A stretch of 27,571 nt of DNA from a virus. Taxonomy: Duplodnaviria; Heunggongvirae; Uroviricota; Caudoviricetes. Numbering within the stretch: the stretch's first letter is position 1; each line of letters starts with the position of its first letter. Made by a program: the position numbers and the translations under genes. Location: the IMG/VR virus record IMGVR_UViG_2617271072_000003; one strand, written 5' to 3'. Shown here in pieces: positions 64 through 7,083 of the stretch. The notes beneath the pieces were generated by a model, which was given only the letters and a program-made list of their open reading frames with translations, did no database searches and was not told the origin of the DNA.

Positions 64-422
64 ATACCTACAGCATCACATTACCCTGGCCTCCGAGCAA
101 TAATCGCTATTACCGCCATAATCGCGGGCGCACGCACGTCAGCGCAGAGGGGCAGGCATACCGCGATAACGTCGCCCGAATCATTAAAAACGCAATGCTG
201 GATATCGGCCTGGCTATGCCTGTGAAAATCCGCATTGAGTGCCACATGCCGGATCGCCGTCGCCGTGACCTGGATAATCTGCAAAAAGCCGCTTTTGACG
301 CACTCACTAAAGCAGGTTTCTGGCTGGATGATGCTCAGGTCGTTGATTACCGCGTTGTGAAGATGCCGGTTGTCAAAGGTGGAAAGCTGGAACTGACCAT
401 CACTGAACTGGGAGATGAATGA
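60..422 (+). CDS. rusA: Holliday junction resolvase RusA (crossover junction endodeoxyribonuclease)
   Basis: 120-aa ORF, GTG start; translation [28 protein letters not shown]... recognised as RusA of lambdoid prophages (recollection). Confidence 0.93.
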
Positions 423-559
423 TGTTTGAGTTTTATATGGCAGAACTTCTTCGCCACCGCTGGATGCGCCTGCGCTTATATCGTTTCCCCAGTTCTGTTT
501 TGACCGATTACCGAATACTGAGGAATTACGCCAAAACCCTGACAGGAGCAGGAGTATGA
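419..559 (+). CDS. ylcG: small YlcG-like phage protein (46 aa)
   Basis: Hand-translated: ATG 419 overlaps the rusA stop (ATGA); [46 protein letters not shown]; sits between rusA and Q as in DLP12-type prophages. Below the ORF-track size cutoff. Confidence 0.55.
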
Positions 560-644
560 AGTCAGAGATAACAATCAACTAATACTGTTTTATTGATTTT
601 TGCTTGTAATTGGCGTTCTGGTCTGATTTTTGTGGAGTAAGTTG

Positions 645-1010
645 ATGCGTGATATTCAGATGGTTCTTGAGCGTTGGGGTGCATGGGCGGCGAGTGACAG
701 TTCAGGAGTAGACTATTCGCCTATAGCTGCTGGGTTTAAGGGACTTCTTCCCTATACAAGCAAAACACGTCAGGCTTGTTCAGATAGTGATGCATTAATT
801 ATTGAAGGTTGTCTTGCTCGTCTAAAGCAAAAAAGGCCAGACGAACATTCGCTTCTTGTTGCCCATTACCTATACGGTATCTCTAAAAGAAAGCTCGCCA
901 AAGCTCGTAAAAAGGATGAGAAACTAATACGCATTGAGATACAGATGGCTGAGGGGTTTATTGAAGGCTGTCTCTCAATGCTTGATCTTTGTTTGGAAAT
1001 GGACCAATAG
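645..1010 (+). CDS. Q: late-gene antiterminator Q (phage 21/82 / DLP12 QuuD type)
   Basis: ORF track 630..1010 starts at TTG; ATG at 645 (MRDIQMVLERWGAWAA...) with GGAG about 9 nt upstream is the likelier start. Recognised as Q-family antiterminator, directly after rusA/ylcG. Confidence 0.85.
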   Translation: MRDIQMVLERWGAWAASDSSGVDYSPIAAGFKGLLPYTSKTRQACSDSDALIIEGCLARLKQKRPDEHSLLVAHYLYGISKRKLAKARKKDEKLIRIEIQMAEGFIEGCLSMLDLCLEMDQ

Positions 1011-1026
1011 ACTACCAGAATAGCAA

Positions 1027-1058
1027 CTGCCGCTCAGCTTTGCGGATCGGCAGTTTTT
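1027..1058 (+). terminator. hairpin plus T-run immediately downstream of Q (possible intrinsic terminator)
   Basis: ctgccg (1027-1032) pairs with cggcag (1048-1053) around a 15-nt loop, followed by TTTTT (1054-1058). Confidence 0.35.
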
Positions 1059-1456
1059 GATGGTGTAATGTTACGCGCAGATGTTTCAAGTATAGATTCC
1101 CTTCCGATTGATACCAAAATTTCGATTGTTCTTGCTTTAGCCTGCATCAATGTTGATTTTATTTCAGGACTTAAGTGGTCAGATCGTAACTGCTTCTCAA
1201 TCTCAGCCAAATCACGCTTGCATTTTGCTCTTTTGGCTGCGTCTTCTGGAGATTCGAAACCATGCCTCGAAATGAACCAATTCATGACGTAAGTTAAAGT
1301 TGCCGCAACACCCGGTACTAATGCGTAGGCTACAGTTCGCCACACGCTATTAGGGTCGGTTAAAATCGCGCTAACAAGAACACTTAAAATTGCTCCCCAA
1401 CCACCAGTTGAAAGGGTAGCTTTTCCTGTGCTTAGACCTTTAGTTTGAGAATTCAT
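1034..1456 (-). CDS. hypothetical protein, predicted membrane protein (cassette gene C)
   Basis: 140-aa ORF; two hydrophobic segments (GGWGAILSVLVSAILT, VAYALVPGVAATLTYVMNWFI) then a charged C-terminal half; start overlaps the upstream stop (ATGA); AT-rich by eye. Confidence 0.55.
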   Translation of the reverse strand: MNSQTKGLSTGKATLSTGGWGAILSVLVSAILTDPNSVWRTVAYALVPGVAATLTYVMNWFISRHGFESPEDAAKRAKCKRDLAEIEKQLRSDHLSPEIKSTLMQAKARTIEILVSIGRESILETSARNITPSKTADPQS

Positions 1457-1722
1457 TTTCGTTTTGAATTCTCCGCAATTGCCTCATCAATGAGGGTTGT
1501 TAGCATTTTTCCCTTTTTACTTGGAACTTTTATTACTAGCGTTTTGGTCACTCCGGAATCTTCATCGTGATATCGGAATTCGAAGACTTTTGTAGGGAAT
1601 AGTCGACGCCAAAGCAAGGCTGACGCTGAATAGCAAAAACGACTAAAGGCAGGGATGATCATTATCACCCCTATCCAGAAGATCAGTTGTGCTATCTGCA
1701 TGTTTAGTGTCACTTTTGTCAA
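1453..1722 (-). CDS. hypothetical small membrane protein (cassette gene B)
   Basis: 89-aa ORF from TTG at 1722 (alternative ATG at 1701, MQIAQLIFWIGVIMIIPAF...); N-terminal hydrophobic helix; same frame as the upstream ORF, separated only by TGA plus one codon. Confidence 0.45.
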   Translation of the reverse strand: MTKVTLNMQIAQLIFWIGVIMIIPAFSRFCYSASALLWRRLFPTKVFEFRYHDEDSGVTKTLVIKVPSKKGKMLTTLIDEAIAENSKRK

Positions 1723-1725
1723 GCC

Positions 1726-2664
1726 TCAGCAGGGCGTTTTTCGTTTTACTTTGGTTATAGCATACTTGGTTGTGGCATTTCGCGCAGTGAAAGTTTTTAT
1801 AGTTTTTAGCTCAACAACAAACAAATCTTCTTTTGTAAAACTGATGATTCCGTTTTGAACTTGGTGTATAAACAACTGATCTTCAAAGGTAACAGCATGC
1901 TCTTCGCCTAAATAATCGATTCTCCAACCCTTTGTACCCTCGAAGTTGATCTGTACGAATCTAACATTGACTTCTTCTACAGACTCTTCTTTTTCAAGTA
2001 GTGTGCCTCTAGGCAGCGGTTTGATCTCTTCGGTTTCACTTCCTTCAAGACGAACGACTTCTTCGCCTTCATCATTCAGCACCTTAAATACTGCTCCTTG
2101 TTTGCCGTCTAATGGTGCACGAACTACATTCACAAGGGCATCACGGACTTCTGGATCTGTTACTAACTTAGCCACTGAGTCATGGCAAACAATTTCTTCC
2201 CCTTCAAGCTCAAGAACAGATTCTTCTGTTCCTGCCCGTTTTGTTACCGAAATTACTTTCTTGCTGCCCAGTTGGCGGATTAGTGATAATGCTGGAGCTC
2301 CAATAGTAGCCCCGGCTATCCCTGTTAGGCCAATCACTTTTGCTACGTCGACGGCATGAGGAACAAGCTCCATCATCGTATAGGATACGCCGAGTGATCC
2401 CGCTTCAGCTGGATTAGTAACCATTAACTTAACGGTTTGTTGGCCGTCATTAAGTCTTTTATCAGCTGCTGATATTAAATCTGCCATCGAACCTATGGAA
2501 ATGCTTAATGTTTTGGCATCAATTTTATGCTGTGCTAATTCATTATCCTCTGCATCGTAGAAGATCTGAAAAGAAGTTGTTTTAGTCACTCTTTGCTCGC
2601 TATGTCTTGATTTTTTTCCATAAAATACCTTTTTTGGTGTAAAAAACATTATCGCGGTCCGCAA
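1726..2664 (-). CDS. hypothetical protein (cassette gene A), no family recognised
   Basis: 312-aa ORF from TTG 2664 (ATG at 2649 gives 307 aa); acidic Glu-rich central linker, Gly/Ala-rich segment GLTGIAGATIGAPALSLIRQLG; AT-rich relative to flanking phage genes. Confidence 0.6.
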   Translation of the reverse strand: MRTAIMFFTPKKVFYGKKSRHSEQRVTKTTSFQIFYDAEDNELAQHKIDAKTLSISIGSMADLISAADKRLNDGQQTVKLMVTNPAEAGSLGVSYTMMELVPHAVDVAKVIGLTGIAGATIGAPALSLIRQLGSKKVISVTKRAGTEESVLELEGEEIVCHDSVAKLVTDPEVRDALVNVVRAPLDGKQGAVFKVLNDEGEEVVRLEGSETEEIKPLPRGTLLEKEESVEEVNVRFVQINFEGTKGWRIDYLGEEHAVTFEDQLFIHQVQNGIISFTKEDLFVVELKTIKTFTARNATTKYAITKVKRKTPC

Positions 2665-2713
2665 AAAAATTGCGTTACTGTGTTAAGAGTGATTACTTCG
2701 TCACACAGCTTAA

Positions 2714-2737
2714 ACCCGCCGTCGAGCGGGTTTTTTT
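2714..2737 (+). terminator. intrinsic terminator (+ orientation), candidate tR'-like element
   Basis: acccgc (2714-2719) / loop cgtcga / gcgggt (2726-2731) followed by T7 (2731-2737). Confidence 0.5.
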
Positions 2738-2861
2738 ATACCTGTAAACCTGGTGCAGTACGGTAAACACGCTGGTGGTCGTGAATACTGACTTTTTTAT
2801 CTTGCTGGCTTTTTAGACAAGAGTTATTGGTATGTCATGTTAACCATGAAGGTAAAAAGAC

Positions 2862-3056
2862 ATGCTAAAACAGCAAGATATGACAGAAACGGCGAAAGTT
2901 GTTTTTAATGAATTAAACGGCAAACCGGCAACAGTCGGGGAGATAGCACAAAACACATACCTTTCACGCGAACGCTGTCAGTTAATACTGACCCAGCTGG
3001 TTATGGCGGGGCTGGCAGATTACCAGTTCGGCTGTTACAGACGCCTTCAGCAATGA
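2862..3056 (+). CDS. hypothetical small protein, possible helix-turn-helix
   Basis: 64-aa ORF with ATG and GAAGG about 8 nt upstream; segment ATVGEIAQNTYLSRERCQLILTQLVMAGLAD looks HTH-like; directly upstream of the methyltransferase. Confidence 0.45.
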   Translation: MLKQQDMTETAKVVFNELNGKPATVGEIAQNTYLSRERCQLILTQLVMAGLADYQFGCYRRLQQ

Positions 3057-3205
3057 AGGGCTTTTAATTTGTGAAAATGGGCGGCTGGTGGGTGTTGGTA
3101 GCACCTGCCAGCCATTCGCTCATGCTTACTGGTCACAAGCGAACCATGGCCCACTGCTTTAGCGCAAAAGCAGAGTGAGCCTACCAGAGTTACGCTTACT
3201 GATCC

Positions 3206-4258
3206 ATGAAGAATACTGTAAAAATAAACAGTGTTGATTTAATCAACGCTGATTGCCTGCATTTTATTCAGTCCCTGCCTGATGACTCCATTGATCTGAT
3301 TGTTACCGATCCGCCGTACTTCAAAGTGAAGCCCAACGGCTGGGACAATCAGTGGAAAGGGGACGAAGATTACCTGAAGTGGCTGGACCACTGTCTGGCC
3401 CAGTTCTGGCGGGTACTGAAACCAGCCGGAAGCCTTTACCTGTTCTGTGGACATCGCCTGGCATCTGATATCGAGATCATGATGCGTGAACGTTTCAACG
3501 TTCTTAACCATATCATCTGGGCGAAGCCGTCCGGACGATGGAACGGGTGTAATAAAGAAAGCCTGCGGGCATATTTCCCCGCTACAGAGCGCGTTCTGTT
3601 TGCTGAACATTACCAGGGGCCATATCGCGGCAAAAGTGACGATTATGCGGCAAAAGAAAGGGAACTCAAACAGCACATAATGGCACCGCTGATTTCGTAT
3701 TTCAGGGATGCTCGTGCCGAACTGGGTATAACGGCAAAACAGATTGCCGAAGCCACTGGTAAGAAAAATATGGTTTCCCACTGGTTTGGTGCCAGTCAGT
3801 GGCAGTTGCCGAATGAGGCTGACTACCGGAAGTTGCAGGCACTGTTTTCCCGTATAGCGGCAGAGAAATTTCAGGAACAACAACTGGAACAACCACACCA
3901 CCAGCTGGTGGCATCTTATGATTCACTGAATCGCAAATATTCTGAATTGCTGGATGAGTTTAAAACTCTCCGGCGCTATTTCTCCGTATCAGTTTCCGTG
4001 CCTTATACCGACGTCTGGACGCATAAACCCGTTCAGTTCTACCCGGGTAAACATCCGTGTGAGAAGCCTGCGGATATGCTCCGGCAAATAATCAGTGCCA
4101 GTAGTCGACAAGGCGATCTGGTTGCTGATTTCTTTATGGGATCCGGTTCCACAATAAAAGCAGCAATGGCGCTGGGGCGTCGGGCCTTAGGTGTTGAGCT
4201 TGAGTCAGAGCGGTTTAACCAGACAGTGAAAGAGATAAACGAGCTGGTGGGGAAATAA
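3206..4258 (+). CDS. DNA N6-adenine methyltransferase (beta-class, orphan)
   Basis: 350-aa ORF; catalytic DPPY motif near the N-terminus (IVTDPPYF) and AdoMet-binding FxGxG near the C-terminus (DFFMGSGST); no adjacent restriction endonuclease ORF. Confidence 0.85.
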
Positions 4259-4264
4259 TCTGGT

Positions 4265-4286
4265 GGCCACGTCAGGTGGCCTTTTT
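4265..4286 (+). terminator. intrinsic terminator downstream of the methyltransferase
   Basis: ggccac (4265-4270) / loop gtcag / gtggcc (4276-4281) then TTTTT (4282-4286). Confidence 0.5.
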
Positions 4287-4325
4287 ATTTCCATTACACA
4301 GCACCCGCATCTGCGAGGTGGGGTT

Positions 4326-4541
4326 ATGAAATCCATGGATAAGTTAACAACGGGTGTCGCCTATGGCACCTCAGCAGGTAGTGCCGGGTACTGGTTTTTA
4401 CAGTTGCTCGATAAAGTCACGCCCTCACAGTGGGCGGCAATAGGTGTGCTGGGTAGTCTGGTATTTGGCCTGCTGACGTACCTGACAAACCTTTATTTCA
4501 AGATTAAAGAAGATAAGCGCAAGGCTGCGAGAGGTGAATAA
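4326..4541 (+). CDS. S: class II holin / pinholin (phage 21 S21-like), dual-start motif
   Basis: 71 aa from ATG 4326 within ORF 4263..4541; [26 protein letters not shown]... resembles S21 (recollection); Met1-Lys-Ser-Met4 dual start; GAGGTG upstream. Confidence 0.85.
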
Positions 4542-5038: not shown

Positions 5039-5502
5039 GCAGAGTAACCGCGATTATCTCCGCTCTGGTTATCTGCATCATCGTCTGCCTGTCGTGGGCG
5101 GTCAATCATTACCGTGATAACGCCATCGCCTACAAAGAACAGCGAGATAAAAAAGTCAGTGAGCTGAAGCAGGCGACCGCCACCATTACTGACATGCAGC
5201 AACGCCAGCGTGCTGCTGATGTACTCGATGCTAAATACACGAAGGAGTTGGCTAATGCGAAAGCTGAAAATGATGCTCTTCGGCGCAAGCTTGATAATGG
5301 TGGTCGGGTGCTCGTCAAAGGAAAATGCTCTGTGCCATCCGCAGCCGAAACTTCCAGCGCCTCCGGCATGGGCAATGATGCCACCGTCGAACTCTCTCCA
5401 GTTGCTGGACGAAACGTTCTCGGTATCCGGGACGGAATCATCAGAGACCAGACAGCACTGAGAACGCTTCAGGAATATATCAGGACGCAATGCCTTCGAT
5501 GA
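5035..5502 (+). CDS. Rz: i-spanin Rz
   Basis: ATG 5035 overlaps the R stop (ATGA); N-terminal TM segment [20 protein letters not shown] followed by a coiled-coil-like periplasmic region. Confidence 0.8.
5255..5461 (+). CDS. Rz1: o-spanin Rz1 (lipoprotein embedded in Rz, +1 frame)
   Basis: ATG 5255 with AAGGAG 8 nt upstream; lipobox LIMVVGC; proline-rich mature part; entirely inside Rz. Confidence 0.72.
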
Positions 5503-5642
5503 TAGCGATAATTTTACTCATCATCCTTCACATTTGGCTCTGTAGACAGGGTGGTGATCACTTCTGGAGTGAATCCAGATTAAACATCTCATTGCTGATG
5601 CTTGAAGTTGAGCATCTGGCGCGCGGTAAGGGGCTGCGTTGA
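5499..5642 (+). CDS. possible small hydrophobic peptide (47 aa), translationally coupled to Rz
   Basis: Hand-translated: ATG 5499 overlaps the Rz stop (ATGA); [47 protein letters not shown]. Below ORF-track cutoff. Confidence 0.25.
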
Positions 5643-5993
5643 GATAAGAGCCAGTCATTACAAATACCAGGATTTAGCCTCGTATTCGCGGGGCTTTTTA
5701 TTGCCATTACAAAAGCCACTCCCTACAGAGTGGCTTTGATAATGGCTTATACCCTACACGGGATAACTTAACTGATATCCCTTTTAAAGGATAAAGGTAT
5801 TCAAGCCTGACACATCATGCGCTGTATCGTCGCCGTATTCCCGTATTAACAGAGACCGTAGCCCGACGGGGAACTCCTTCTGCGCGAGTGTGCGGGAATA
5901 ATCAAAAACGATGCACACCGGGGTTACCGGGTACACATATTTCATCATGCCAGCGAGTCCGGTTCTGGCACGGAAGAAACCGGACGTTATGAT

Positions 5994-6420
5994 TTAGTGC
6001 GGAAATATTTGTGTAGTGTTCTGAATGTTCTCAGTAAAGAGTAATGAATTATCAAAGGTATAGTAATACCTTTTGTTTTCGTGGATATTTGTAATCCATC
6101 TGAAAACCCCTGCTGTAGCAAGATTTTTCCTGTATTCGTAAAATGATAACTCTCCTGATTTGAATCCTTTTAAGGTGGCTTCTATAAGGCATTTATTTTT
6201 TGAAAATCTTACATTTACAACCTTACCCTGTCCTTTTATTAAAACCGTATTATCGTTTTCAAGAACAAGATGAATATTCTCTGTAGCTAAATAGTAAATG
6301 TAATGTGAGACATTGTGACGTTTTTAGTTCAGAATAAAACCAGTGATAGTTTAAATTATTTCGCACTTTATCGAATATTTGTTTAAAAATGGCAACCTGA
6401 GCCATTGTAGTACCTTCCAT
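5994..6420 (-). pseudogene. AT-rich frameshifted ORF remnant, product unknown
   Basis: Hand-translated minus strand: ATG at 6420 opens a 53-codon frame to a stop at 6259-6261; an adjacent frame is open for 109 codons from 6323 to a stop at 5994-5996 with no ATG. The two frames overlap, consistent with one ~140-codon gene broken by a frameshift. Confidence 0.3.
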
Positions 6421-6461
6421 GTGATATGAGGGGCGTAGTCTGCACGATTATCTAAATTGCT

Positions 6462-6695
6462 TCAATCTGGTCTGATCTGTTTTCTGAGCAATTCAGTAAT
6501 GTCACTCTTTTCTTTGTTTGCTTCAGGAGAAACTCTTTTTTCTGAGCACAGTCTCCGGCGGCAGGCTTCAATGACCCAGGCTGAGAAATTCCCGGACCCT
6601 TTTTGATCAAGAGCGATGTTAATTTGTTCAATCATTTGGTTAGGAAAGCGGATGTTGCGGGTTGTTGTTCTGCGGGTTCTGTTCTTCGTTGACAT
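6462..6695 (-). CDS. small ribbon-helix-helix-like DNA-binding protein (possibly YlcI/DUF3950-like)
   Basis: 77-aa ORF; basic N-terminus then NIRFPNQMIEQINIALDQKGSGNFSAWVIEA, resembling an RHH fold; family assignment is recollection only. Confidence 0.45.
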   Translation of the reverse strand: MSTKNRTRRTTTRNIRFPNQMIEQINIALDQKGSGNFSAWVIEACRRRLCSEKRVSPEANKEKSDITELLRKQIRPD

Positions 6696-6894
6696 GAGGT
6701 TGTCCCGTATTCAGTGTCGCTGATTTGTATTGTCTGAAGTTGTTTTTACGTTAAGTTGATGCAGATCAATTAATACGATATCTGCGTCATAATTGATTAT
6801 TTGACGTGGTTTGATTGCGTAGATGCACGTTGTGACATGTAGATGATAATTATTATCATTTTGCGGGTCCTTTCCGGCGATCCGACAGGTTACG

Positions 6895-6906
6895 GGGCGG
6901 CGACCT
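6895..6906. other. cos: cos site: cosN 12-nt cohesive end GGGCGGCGACCT (cosQ upstream, cosB downstream, roughly 6790-7080)
   Basis: Exact lambda cohesive-end sequence at 6895-6906, preceded by ...CCGACAGGTTACG and followed by CGCGGGTTTTCGCTATTTATGAAAA..., immediately upstream of Nu1. Confidence 0.88.
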
Positions 6907-7083
6907 CGCGGGTTTTCGCTATTTATGAAAAATTTCCGGTTTAAGGCGTTTCCGTTCTTCTTCGTCATAACTTAATGTTTTTATTTAAAATACCCTCTGA
7001 AAAGAAAGGAAACGACAGGTGCTGAAAGCGAGCTTTTTGGCCTCTGTCGTTTCCTTTCTCTGTTTTTGTCCGTGGAATGAACA

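What the first reader, a model, noticed from the sequence alone, without database searches (positions are those of the whole stretch)
1034..2664. Uncharacterised AT-rich three-gene antisense cassette between Q and the lysis genes: candidate novel accessory or defence module
Three co-directional minus-strand ORFs (A 1726..2664, B 1453..1722, C 1034..1456) are inserted antisense to late transcription in the Q-to-holin slot, a classic moron position. By eye the cassette is clearly more AT-rich than the flanking phage genes, suggesting separate acquisition. B and C overlap by ATGA (translational coupling); A and B share a frame. B and C each carry strongly hydrophobic segments (predicted membrane proteins); A is larger and soluble-looking with a Glu-rich linker. 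I recognise none of the three as a known phage housekeeping, toxin or defence family. A soluble protein paired with small membrane proteins is an arrangement seen in abortive-infection and superinfection-exclusion systems. Function is inference only.
Basis: partly seen in the sequence, partly recalled or inferred. Interest (0 to 1): 0.85.

Follow-up and report, generated by a model that had tools for sequence, protein, structure and literature searches.

The report
Prophage three-gene candidate defence operon
Three tightly coupled genes (one soluble protein plus two small membrane proteins) form a conserved, mobile prophage cargo operon wedged between the late-gene activator gene Q and its target promoter; context points to an untested anti-phage exclusion system whose main protein is already listed as a defence candidate.

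Summary
The three minus-strand genes are real. All three are under strong purifying selection, including B, which RefSeq does not annotate. They travel as one unit, A→B→C, with overlapping stop/start codons.

- A starts at GTG 2589 (287 aa), not at 2664.
- "A and B share a frame" comes from a 1-nt insertion in this copy. Canonical copies overlap as TTGA.
- The AT-richness is modest.
- The cassette lies upstream of the late promoter block, between the Q stop codon and that block. It is not inside the late transcript.

The Q–PR′ slot is a cargo hotspot. It can be empty, or hold the porin gene nmpC (DLP12), a DUF6731 plus membrane-protein pair (phage cdtI), or a nuclease-like gene, always antisense.

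A is not unknown. It matches PADLOC candidate PDC-S42 (untested), phrog_3243 and NCBIfam "LAPAL" family. Its superfamily has about 1,900 cluster representatives.

The same trio also occurs downstream of prophage repressor genes, the position rexAB holds after cI in lambda, and in Mu-like phages. Distant A relatives pair instead with a TIR protein or sit beside a Type I restriction gene.

Best reading: a lysogen-expressed sensor (A) with two membrane effectors (B, C). No member has been tested, so function remains inference. It is a new variant of a known kind, of moderate-to-high interest.

The parts
1726..2589 (-). Gene A, 287 aa (listed ORF runs to 2664; real start is GTG 2589). A soluble protein with an N-terminal alpha/beta domain, a Gly/Ala-rich variable linker (about residues 77-100) and two beta-rich, OB-like domains. 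Proposed sensor or adaptor.
   Evidence: - ORF. Start taken from family alignment A1.
- Family hits: PADLOC PDC-S42 4.4e-32, phrog_3243 1.5e-59, NCBIfam NF053583 199.9 bits against a cutoff of 60.
- dN/dS 0.035.
- 1,864 cluster representatives at E<=1e-3.
1737..1741 (-). A-run carrying a 1-nt insertion relative to 99%-identical copies. It shortens A's C-terminus (KRKRPAEA* becomes KRKTPC*) and removes the canonical TTGA overlap between A's stop and B's start.
   Evidence: Direct comparison of the window with L001, and three-frame translations. Family C-termini are shown.
1453..1722 (-). Gene B, 89 aa from TTG 1722 (86 aa if from GTG 1713). It has one N-terminal transmembrane helix (about residues 8-27), the conserved motif W-x7-P-x3-RF...LLWRRLFP, and a basic cytoplasmic tail. 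Not annotated by PGAP.
   Evidence: - ORF.
- Homologues called in other assemblies.
- Conserved in 51/53 loci at 36-100% identity.
- dN/dS 0.097.
- Hydropathy.
- Missing from the RefSeq annotation.
- hhalign to the L068 partner: probability 88%, E 3.2e-6.
1034..1456 (-). Gene C, 140 aa. Charge distribution indicates N-in/C-in topology with two transmembrane helices (about 18-32 and 42-62). It carries the conserved motif R-H-G-[LF]-E-[ST]-P-[EA]-[DE]-A and a long cytoplasmic helical tail. Its ATG overlaps B's stop (ATGA).
   Evidence: - ORF and sequence.
- Family.
- Junctions.
- Topology and alignment.
- Four-helix model, low confidence (pLDDT 58).
- dN/dS 0.067.
- hhalign to the L053 partner: probability 80%, E 1.4e-5.
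1011..1033 (.). 23-nt gap between the convergent stop codons of Q and C, with no terminator. The gap is 16-42 nt in all 51 related loci.
630..1010 (+). Q antiterminator gene (Q21/Q933W family, PF06530). It is the left boundary of the cargo slot.
   Evidence: - Pfam 3.8e-53.
- Always convergent with C.
- Family assignment from 10.1101/651190.
2590..2644 (-). AT-rich leader upstream of A. This is where the cassette's own promoter is presumed to lie, but it has not been identified with confidence. A -10-like GATAAT at 2653..2648 abuts the conserved GCGGACCGC.
   Evidence: - Sequence.
- The scan found no convincing sigma-70 site here.
- The region varies between clades.
2645..2740 (+). Putative late promoter unit PR'-qut-tR'. 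It comprises an A-rich tract, CGCGGTCCGC (2653..2662), TGTTAAGAGTGATTACTTCGTCACACAGC (2681..2709), a terminator hairpin (2712..2733) and a T-run. It is the right boundary of the cargo slot.
   Evidence: - In the empty site it directly follows the Q stop codon, and it lies beyond every cargo.
- It is present upstream of A in all the unique related loci examined (one, L052, carries only a more diverged copy). Its core changes to GCGTACGC where Q is only 52-62% identical.
- Terminator.
- Annotated as a terminator in SfV.
- Canonical layout.

Best explanation
A-B-C is a self-contained, horizontally mobile prophage cargo operon. It most likely acts in the lysogen as an anti-phage exclusion or abortive-infection system.

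Shown:
- The three genes are translationally coupled (canonical junctions TTGA and ATGA).
- They co-evolve and move as one unit.
- They are inserted antisense between the Q gene and the Q-dependent late promoter. Other antisense cargo, such as the porin gene nmpC, occupies the same slot.

Inferred mechanism:
- A is a cytoplasmic protein with OB-like beta-barrel domains. It is proposed to be the sensor or adaptor for an infection cue, possibly phage nucleic acid or a phage protein.
- B (one transmembrane helix) and C (two transmembrane helices plus a long cytoplasmic helix) both have tails facing the cytoplasm, where A could dock. They are proposed to be inner-membrane effectors.
- On activation, B and C would compromise the membrane (depolarisation or premature lysis) or block DNA entry, stopping the superinfecting phage.
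- The logic is that of lambda RexA/RexB, without homology to them.

In more distant clades the same A scaffold is paired with other effectors (TIR, others). This fits a conserved sensor with swappable effectors.
For: 1. Unit character:
- The A-B-C order is kept in 51/53 viral loci.
- Junctions overlap.
- Identities co-vary at Spearman 0.89-0.93 among A, B and C, against about 0.55 with Q.
- dN/dS is 0.035-0.097.

2. Mobility and cargo status:
- Empty site L057, and alternative antisense cargos L058, L059/cdtI and L060. The last hits PADLOC PDC-M68A and CBASS-type endonuclease models.
- DLP12 nmpC sits in the same slot.
- L026/L028 have Q 96%, methyltransferase 99% and holin 100% identical, but A/B/C only 70/47/45%.
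- The full cassette is in only 31 of 5,426 E. coli genomes.

3. Lysogeny-side contexts elsewhere:
- Directly after an S24 CI-type repressor gene and divergent from cro (L067).
- After XRE-type repressor genes in Mu-like phages and in an integrase-linked element.

4. Defence association of A:
- Full-length PADLOC PDC-S42 match.
- PDCs were nominated because they are embedded in BREX, DISARM or Type I RM loci.
- Core PDC-S42 members are followed by an overlapping TIR gene (L071), sit beside HsdR (L072), or sit near an Mrr_N protein (L074).

5. Architecture:
- B and C are membrane proteins with cytoplasmic tails.
- A is soluble and confidently folded, with OB-like domains.
- Partners in deep clades are homologous or co-linear.
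Against: - No member of the family has been tested. PDC-S42 is explicitly an untested candidate, and no literature was found.
- B and C hit no defence, holin or other family.
- Expression in the lysogen is not shown, and no convincing promoter was found upstream of A.
- The TIR pairing is a single observed locus.
- In four loci from two non-lambdoid contexts (the Mu-like phages L053, L054 and L070, and contig L065) the trio lies immediately upstream of, and co-directional with, lysis genes. That also fits a lysis-related role.
- NCBI names the family a 'putative phage structural protein'.
Confidence: 0.5

Rival explanations
1. The module controls lysis. B and C would act with or on the phage's own holin, endolysin or spanin system (antiholin-like, lysis-timing or lysis-inhibition function), with A as a regulator. 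The module would serve the carrier phage's own lytic cycle rather than defence.
For: - The trio is immediately upstream of, and co-directional with, lysis genes in Mu-like phages (L053, L054, L070) and in L065, where a Pfam Holin_2-3 gene follows.
- In the window it is one promoter block away from the lysis cassette.
- C's layout, two transmembrane helices plus a charged cytoplasmic tail, resembles small holin-like proteins.
Against: - In 51 of the 53 viral loci, plus L001 and L063, the operon is antisense and lies upstream of PR'. It therefore cannot be co-transcribed with lysis genes.
- Many otherwise near-identical prophages lack it or carry unrelated cargo there, so it is dispensable for lysis.
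- In L067 and L061 it is next to repressor genes, not lysis genes.
- Distant A relatives occur outside phages with a TIR protein or next to RM genes.
- B and C hit no holin, spanin or antiholin family.
- A 70-80 nt gap separates C from the lysis genes in the co-directional cases, enough for a separate late promoter.
Confidence: 0.12
2. The module is a lysogenic-conversion function unrelated to phage defence. It would be an envelope or membrane-physiology module that benefits the host (stress tolerance, colonisation, resistance to host factors), like other cargo in this slot.
For: - The same slot carries the porin gene nmpC in DLP12.
- B and C are membrane proteins.
- The antisense orientation and independent transcription unit are typical of conversion genes.
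Against: - A's family is associated with defence loci and with a TIR partner.
- The trio is confined to phages and mobile elements across many genera and is placed next to repressor genes.
- Nothing in A, B or C resembles transporters, adhesins or envelope enzymes.
Confidence: 0.13
3. A is a virion structural protein, as the NCBIfam name 'LAPAL motif-containing putative phage structural protein' suggests, and B and C are assembly or accessory factors.
For: NCBIfam NF053583 equivalog hit, 199.9 bits against a cutoff of 60. PGAP uses that product name in some genomes.
Against: - A is never located in a head or tail module in any context seen. In lambdoid prophages it is antisense and outside the late operon.
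- It is absent from near-identical prophages.
- Relatives occur outside phages with TIR or RM neighbours.
- No fold similarity to virion proteins was found in PDB or BFVD.
- No relative was found by tblastn in 50,697 deposited phage genomes.
Confidence: 0.03
4. The main role is regulatory, acting through transcription rather than through the proteins. Leftward transcription of any cargo in this slot runs convergently into Q, with no terminator in the 23-nt gap. It would act as an antisense brake on Q in lysogens, as lambda paQ does. The proteins would be secondary.
For: - The C-stop to Q-stop gap is 16-42 nt with no terminator in all 51 loci.
- All cargos in the slot are antisense to Q.
Against: - Strong purifying selection on all three proteins, and conservation of the trio in contexts without Q, show that the proteins themselves are the selected function.
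- The empty site shows Q control works without cargo.
Confidence: 0.05

Closest known systems
PADLOC phage defence candidate PDC-S42 (Payne et al., bioRxiv 10.1101/2024.01.29.577857)
   Same: A aligns over its full length to model PDLC05015 (4.4e-32). It shares the conserved N-terminal and C-terminal domains with core members (alignment A5). Both are untested candidates supported by genomic context.
   Different: - Core PDC-S42 proteins score 1e-89 to 1e-95. The window's A belongs to a sister, phage-borne clade.
- PDC-S42 is defined as a single-gene system. Here A is obligatorily linked to two small membrane-protein genes that PADLOC does not model.
- Core members have other partners: a TIR protein, a 190-aa soluble protein, or a 153-aa protein with one transmembrane helix.
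Lambda RexA/RexB exclusion system (and Rex-like prophage pairs)
   Same: - Works alike in outline: a roughly 280-aa soluble protein plus small inner-membrane protein(s), encoded by a prophage.
- In one relative (L067) the genes sit immediately downstream of, and co-directional with, the CI-type repressor gene. That is the position of rexAB after cI (the lambda layout is from established knowledge).
   Different: - There are three genes, not two. The membrane partners have one and two transmembrane helices, whereas RexB has four (established knowledge).
- In the window the location is the Q-PR' slot, not the immunity region.
lc/nmpC porin gene of lambdoid phages (PA-2, DLP12)
   Same: It occupies exactly the same slot and orientation: between a PF06530-type Q gene and the PR' block, antisense. 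It is a classical lysogen-expressed conversion gene (established knowledge).
   Different: The proteins are unrelated: an outer-membrane porin against a cytoplasmic protein plus two small inner-membrane proteins. The similarity is one of position only.
Phage cdtI orf54/orf53 (DUF6731 protein plus multi-transmembrane protein)
   Same: - Same slot and same antisense orientation.
- Similar sizes (313 aa soluble plus 147 aa membrane).
- Shares the flanking PR' block DNA.
   Different: No sequence similarity to A or C. It has two genes rather than three, and its function is also unknown.
Defence systems with a conserved sensor and swappable effectors (for example TIR or transmembrane effectors in Thoeris, CBASS and retrons)
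   Same: The A scaffold is paired with two membrane proteins in phages and with a TIR-domain protein in L071. That partner hits bSEFIR, ThsB and PDC-S66 models.
   Different: There is no signalling enzyme, nucleotide cyclase or reverse transcriptase. A matches none of those systems' components. The effector swap rests on very few inspected loci.

Membership tests
PADLOC PDC-S42 (defence candidate) | Full-length match of the protein to a PDC-S42 HMM | tested here: met
   PDLC05015 at 4.4e-32, covering residues 29-310 of the 312-aa ORF against profile positions 3-290 of 302. This is weaker than core members, which score 1e-89 to 1e-95.
PADLOC PDC-S42 (defence candidate) | Single-gene system | tested here: not met
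   A is followed by B and C, with overlapping junctions, in 51/53 viral loci and in several deeper clades.
PADLOC PDC-S42 (defence candidate) | Found embedded in, or adjacent to, BREX, DISARM or Type I RM loci | tested here: inconclusive
   Not the case in this window. One distant relative lies next to an HsdR gene (L072).
PADLOC PDC-S42 (defence candidate) | Demonstrated anti-phage activity | not testable with these tools
   PDCs are described as 145 untested candidates. No experimental report was found.
NCBIfam NF053583 LAPAL motif-containing putative phage structural protein | Score above the curated cutoff | tested here: met
   199.9 bits against a cutoff of 60, E 5.7e-59.
NCBIfam NF053583 LAPAL motif-containing putative phage structural protein | Structural (virion) role, as the name implies | tested here: not met
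   - The gene lies outside, and antisense to, the late operon.
- It is dispensable in sibling prophages.
- It shows no fold similarity to virion proteins.
- Virion proteomics cannot be done with these tools.
PHROG phrog_3243 | HMM match | tested here: met
   1.5e-59 over residues 24-309. The family has no known function.
RexAB-type exclusion system | Homology of the soluble and membrane components to RexA and RexB | tested here: not met
   - No Pfam family for A, B or C at E<=0.1, apart from a sub-threshold coiled-coil hit for C.
- No PADLOC hit for B or C.
RexAB-type exclusion system | Soluble protein plus inner-membrane protein(s), encoded by a prophage and co-transcribed with or near the repressor | tested here: inconclusive
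   - The architecture is met.
- Repressor-adjacent placement is seen in relatives L067, L053/54, L061 and L070.
- It is not seen in the window, where the operon is in the Q-PR' slot.
Holin / antiholin / lysis accessory proteins | Membership of a holin or spanin family, and location within the late lysis transcription unit | tested here: not met
   - No holin, spanin or antiholin hits for B or C in Pfam, PHROGs or NCBIfam.
- The cassette is antisense and upstream of PR' in the window and in the 51 related viral loci, plus L001 and L063.
- It is co-directional and adjacent to lysis genes only in Mu-like phages and in L065.
Moron / lysogenic-conversion cargo of lambdoid prophages | An autonomous transcription unit inserted between conserved phage modules, present or absent among close relatives, and differing in composition | tested here: met
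   - Empty site and alternative cargos.
- Orientation opposite to the flanks.
- GC 42.1% against 48.9% (methyltransferase) and 49.2% (lysozyme), but similar to Q at 43.6%.
- The cassette's own promoter was not identified.

The most novel reading that the evidence does not exclude
A-B-C is the phage-borne, three-component form of a large, uncharacterised immune family of about 1,900 cluster representatives. In this family a conserved OB-like sensor protein (A, PDC-S42) is wired to interchangeable effectors. In prophages the effector is a fixed pair of small inner-membrane proteins, one of which is systematically missed by genome annotation. Elsewhere it is a TIR protein or another partner. If so, this would be a new abortive-infection or exclusion system with a new sensor fold. 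The Q-PR' intergenic slot would be a general defence hotspot of Q21/Q933W-type lambdoid prophages.
Probability: 0.4. Interest if true: 0.75.

Novelty: new variant of a known kind. Interest (0 to 1): 0.6.

Why it matters
If the operon is a working exclusion system, four things follow:
- It would turn an untested single-gene database candidate (PDC-S42) into a defined three-gene system with identifiable effector partners.
- It would give a function to a very large family of unknown proteins (PHROG 3243 and NCBIfam LAPAL) whose current product name, "structural protein", is probably misleading.
- It would reveal a conserved small gene (B) that standard annotation omits.
- It would define the Q-to-PR′ gap of Q21/Q933W-type prophages, the family that includes Shiga-toxin phages, as a cargo hotspot worth mining.

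The locus is compact (about 1.6 kb), occurs in E. coli, and can be tested directly with standard phage panels.

Tried and rejected
- **DNA and tblastn searches of 50,697 deposited phage genomes** found no copy of A, B or C. Only the PR′/orf64 segment is shared.
- **Genome-contig scan** with the A alignment found nothing confirmable.
- **afdb50 fold library** was unavailable.
- **Fold and profile searches for A:**
  - BFVD gave two uncharacterised matches: a DUF6575 protein and a Pipsqueaks ORF.
  - A PDB sequence-profile search found nothing.
- **C's AlphaFold model** was too poor (pLDDT 58) to justify a fold search.
- **Rfam** found nothing in 500..4400.
- **Literature searches** for "PDC-S42", "LAPAL motif" and "DUF6731" returned nothing.
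- **Tai systems** (PMC11364771) occupy a different slot, upstream of packaging, and were rejected as an explanation.
- **The Q21 structure paper** gives PR′/QBE sequences only in figures, so the PR′ block could not be matched base for base.
- **Supplements of two defence-discovery papers:** one paper (DefensePredictor) has no supplementary files held as text, and the other's supplements have no entry for PDC-S42.
- **The 288-aa ORF next to A in L061** is not an A paralogue.
- **Stop-codon read-through or an A-B fusion**, suggested by the shared frame, was rejected. The shared frame comes from a 1-nt insertion and is not conserved.
- **The hydrophobic "LAPAL" stretch of A as a membrane anchor** was rejected. 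It is a variable, low-confidence linker that is also present in the TIR-paired clade.
- **Diversifying selection** was not found. All three genes are under purifying selection.
Full report
**1. The observation**

Three co-directional minus-strand ORFs are present at the stated coordinates: 1726..2664, 1453..1722 and 1034..1456. They lie between a RusA gene and a Q antiterminator gene on one side (630..1010, PF06530, 3.8e-53). On the other side are a small ORF (2862..3056), a DNA methyltransferase (3206..4258), a holin and a lysozyme. The ATGA overlap of B and C is real.

Several details need correcting:
- A's family is 287-293 aa long and begins "M..TSFK[IV]FYDA". A therefore starts at GTG 2589, not at the upstream TTG.
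- The window copy has one extra A in the run at 1737..1741. In 99%-identical copies A ends ...KRKRPAEA*, and its TGA overlaps B's TTG start (GCTTGACA).
- The "shared frame" is therefore an accident of this copy. The canonical operon has TTGA and ATGA junctions, and frame relations vary across loci.
- GC content is 42.1% for the cassette and 53.9% for the window. Q next door is 43.6%, and 4.8% of equal-sized windows are as low.

**2. All three are real genes and form one unit**

A search of IMG/VR with the A alignment returned 53 prophage or viral loci, with A from 99% down to 29% identical.
- In 51 of them tblastn finds B (36-100% identity) and C (41-100%) directly downstream of A in the same order. 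A Q gene (52-99%) is convergent just beyond C.
- The B/C junction overlaps in all but one of these loci. The gap from C's stop to Q's stop is 16-42 nt in all 51.
- Pairwise dN/dS medians are 0.035 (A), 0.097 (B) and 0.067 (C). B is therefore a genuine coding gene, although PGAP leaves it out.
- Identity to the window proteins co-varies tightly among A, B and C (Spearman 0.89-0.93) and only loosely with Q (about 0.55).
- Loci L026 and L028 have almost identical flanks (Q 96%, methyltransferase 99%, holin 100%) but A/B/C at 70/47/45%. Cassette alleles are therefore exchanged as blocks.

**3. Where the cassette sits**

Aligning the cargo boundaries of several E. coli prophages shows a conserved block. 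It consists of an A-rich tract, CGCGGTCCGC, a short variable spacer, TGTTAAGAGTGGTTACTTCGCCACACAGC, a GC hairpin and a T-run.
- In an "empty" prophage the block starts right at the Q stop codon (L057). In every cargo-bearing prophage it lies on the far side of the cargo.
- In the window it is at 2645..2740, with the terminator at 2712..2733.
- It lies 65-160 nt upstream of A, on the opposite strand, in all the unique related loci examined; one (L052) carries only a more diverged copy. Its core changes to GCGTACGC precisely where Q is most divergent, at 52-62% identity.
- The canonical arrangement is Q gene, PR′, sigma-dependent pause element, terminator, then late genes. PF06530 is the Q21/Q933W family (10.1101/651190).
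- PR′ is constitutively active and is terminated immediately downstream in lysogens (PMC7547250).

I therefore read the block as PR′-qut-tR′. This is an inference from position, conservation, co-variation with Q and the terminator, because published PR′21 sequences were only in figures.

The consequence is that the cassette lies between Q and PR′. It is convergent with the delayed-early transcript that reads through Q, and it is not inside the late transcript.

**4. The slot is a cargo hotspot**

With the same Q family, the slot has these states:

| Locus | Content of the slot |
|---|---|
| L057 | empty |
| L058 | antisense 339-aa unknown protein |
| Phage cdtI, L059 | antisense DUF6731 protein plus multi-transmembrane protein |
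| L060 | antisense 248-aa protein whose N-terminal domain hits PADLOC PDC-M68A (7.5e-27) and CBASS-type endonuclease effectors |
| K-12 DLP12 | antisense porin gene nmpC (plus IS5) |

The nmpC gene is a classical lysogenic-conversion gene. All cargos are antisense to Q. The full A-B-C DNA is in 31 of 5,426 complete E. coli genomes.

**5. What the proteins are**

*Protein A*
- It hits PADLOC PDC-S42 (4.4e-32, full length), phrog_3243 (1.5e-59, unknown function) and NCBIfam NF053583 "LAPAL motif-containing putative phage structural protein" (199.9 bits, cutoff 60). It has no Pfam hit.
- Its AlphaFold model is confident (pLDDT 82.8, pTM 0.73). It shows an N-terminal alpha/beta domain, a low-confidence Gly/Ala-rich linker and two beta-rich domains.
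- BFVD gives only two significant matches, both uncharacterised. A profile search of PDB sequences finds nothing.
- An exhaustive HMM search finds 1,864 cluster representatives at E<=1e-3. Nearly all of the 150 best-scoring ones listed are 285-310 aa, so the architecture is fixed and stand-alone.

*Protein B*
- It has one strong N-terminal transmembrane helix and a basic cytoplasmic tail.

*Protein C*
- Charge distribution indicates N-in/C-in topology with two moderate transmembrane helices.
- It has the conserved motif R-H-G-[LF]-E-[ST]-P and a long cytoplasmic helix.
- Neither B nor C hits any library.

**6. The trio in other contexts**

- Mu-like transposable phages carry the order XRE-type repressor gene, variable small ORFs, A′, B′ (about 80 aa, one TM in L053/L054), C′ (about 125 aa, two hydrophobic segments by eye in L053/L054), then holin-like, endolysin and spanin genes, then terminase. 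This is seen in L053, L054 and L070; L070's small partners (71 and 121 aa) gave no transmembrane segment at the hydropathy threshold used.
- An integrase-linked element has the order XRE-type gene, two membrane ORFs, A, B, C (L061/L062).
- L067 has a cro-like gene divergent from an S24 CI-type repressor gene, which is followed directly by A, B and C. This is the position of rexAB after cI in lambda (established knowledge).
- L065 and L068/69 also carry trios.
- Profile comparisons support homology of the small partners across some of these distances. C against the L053 partner gives 80% probability. B against the L068 partner gives 88%. For L067 the comparison is not significant.

**7. Links to defence**

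- PDCs are 145 untested candidates. They were nominated because at least one member is nested in BREX, DISARM or Type I RM loci (10.1101/2024.01.29.577857).
- More distant A relatives are core PDC-S42 members, at 1e-89 to 1e-95. They lack B and C and have other partners:
  - a TIR-domain protein overlapping A's stop by 4 nt (L071; it hits bSEFIR, ThsB and PDC-S66 models);
  - a soluble 190-aa protein, in a locus beside an HsdR gene (L072/73);
  - a 153-aa protein with one transmembrane helix, followed by an Mrr_N/TPR protein (L074).
- The Gly/Ala-rich stretch of A is a variable linker in all clades, so it is not a dedicated membrane anchor.

**8. Interpretation**

*Shown*
- A conserved, translationally coupled, mobile three-gene operon.
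- It sits in a defined cargo slot between Q and PR′.
- Its large protein belongs to a catalogued but untested defence-candidate family.

*Inferred*
- The operon is expressed in the lysogen.
- A acts as a cytoplasmic sensor or adaptor. B and C act as inner-membrane effectors, or as blockers of DNA entry. This is RexAB-like logic without homology.

I put about 0.5 on the module having an anti-phage exclusion or abortive-infection function. I put less on the specific sensor-to-membrane mechanism.

*Rivals*
- A lysis-control role. It is supported by adjacency to lysis genes in Mu-like phages. It is contradicted by the antisense, pre-PR′ position in the 51 related viral loci, and by dispensability.
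- A non-defence conversion function.
- A virion structural role, as the NCBIfam name suggests. Position and distribution contradict it.
- A purely transcriptional, antisense-Q role. Purifying selection on the proteins and the Q-less contexts contradict it.

**9. Novelty and score**

The main protein is already in three libraries, and the "soluble protein plus membrane protein prophage exclusion" idea is an established kind. I found no description of the following:
- the obligatory three-gene form;
- the unannotated gene B;
- the effector-swap pattern;
- the Q-PR′ slot as a hotspot.

No experimental data on any member were found. I rate it a new variant of a known kind, with interest 0.6.

Noticed in passing
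window 1737..1741 (minus strand, 3' end of gene A): This copy has a 1-nt insertion in an A-run relative to 99%-identical E. coli copies. It changes A's last residues (KRKRPAEA* becomes KRKTPC*) and removes the TTGA overlap with B. It could be a real mutation or a homopolymer sequencing error.
   Followed up: yes
window 1453..1722; L001 6557..6823: Gene B is conserved and under purifying selection, but RefSeq/PGAP does not annotate it in the genome inspected. In PADLOC the family is modelled as a single-gene system.
   Followed up: yes
window 2653..2662 and related loci L030, L031, L032, L034, L047, L052: The core of the putative PR' block (GCGGTCCGC) changes to GCGTACGC exactly in the loci whose Q protein is only 52-62% identical. 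This suggests a Q-specific recognition element. On the opposite strand the same DNA reads as a face-to-face promoter-like pair (ATTACA...GATAAT-type), so PR' and a leftward promoter might overlap.
   Followed up: partly
L055 (phage cdtI) 1049..2437; L059 1917..3329: A different antisense pair sits in the same Q-PR' slot: a 313-aa DUF6731 protein plus a 147-149-aa multi-transmembrane protein. It is unrelated in sequence to A and C and is also uncharacterised. It is a second candidate exclusion module.
   Followed up: partly
L060 1929..2675: The same slot holds an antisense 248-aa protein. Its N-terminal 130 residues match PADLOC PDC-M68A and CBASS/Shedu-type endonuclease effector models.
   Followed up: partly
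L058 1908..2927: The same slot holds an antisense 339-aa hypothetical protein with no PADLOC hit and no significant Pfam hit.
   Followed up: no
L064 (E. coli K-12 DLP12) 251..3693: The order is quuD, IS5 plus the porin gene nmpC (antisense), a PR'-like block, then essD. The classical nmpC gene therefore sits in exactly the same Q-PR' slot and orientation as the cassette.
   Followed up: yes
window 5500..7080: A very AT-rich stretch (GC down to 0.31 at about 6000-6450) lies between the lysis genes and the small terminase gene. It has only short ORFs, for example a 77-aa minus-strand ORF at 6462..6695. In L001 the equivalent region carries an 'SDH family Clp fold serine proteinase' gene. This is a second variable cargo region, and Tai defence genes are reported 'upstream of the packaging module' in other phages (PMC11364771).
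   Followed up: no
window 3206..4258: The DNA methyltransferase downstream of PR' matches a PADLOC Type II methyltransferase model at 1.8e-151. No restriction partner is nearby, so it is an orphan phage methylase conserved in many lambdoid and Stx-type prophages.
   Followed up: no
L072 7130..7702 and L073 1291..1863: The 190-aa soluble partner of a core PDC-S42 protein begins MKIACLGWGSLIWD. From memory this resembles the GGCT/ChaC-like motif, but I did not test it against a family library other than PADLOC, where it had no hit.
   Followed up: no
L053 6751..7972 versus L054 7179..7972: Two sibling Mu-like phages have nearly identical lysis and early genes. They differ in the ORFs between the repressor gene and the trio, and the trio itself has diverged. 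The repressor-proximal region is variable there too.
   Followed up: partly
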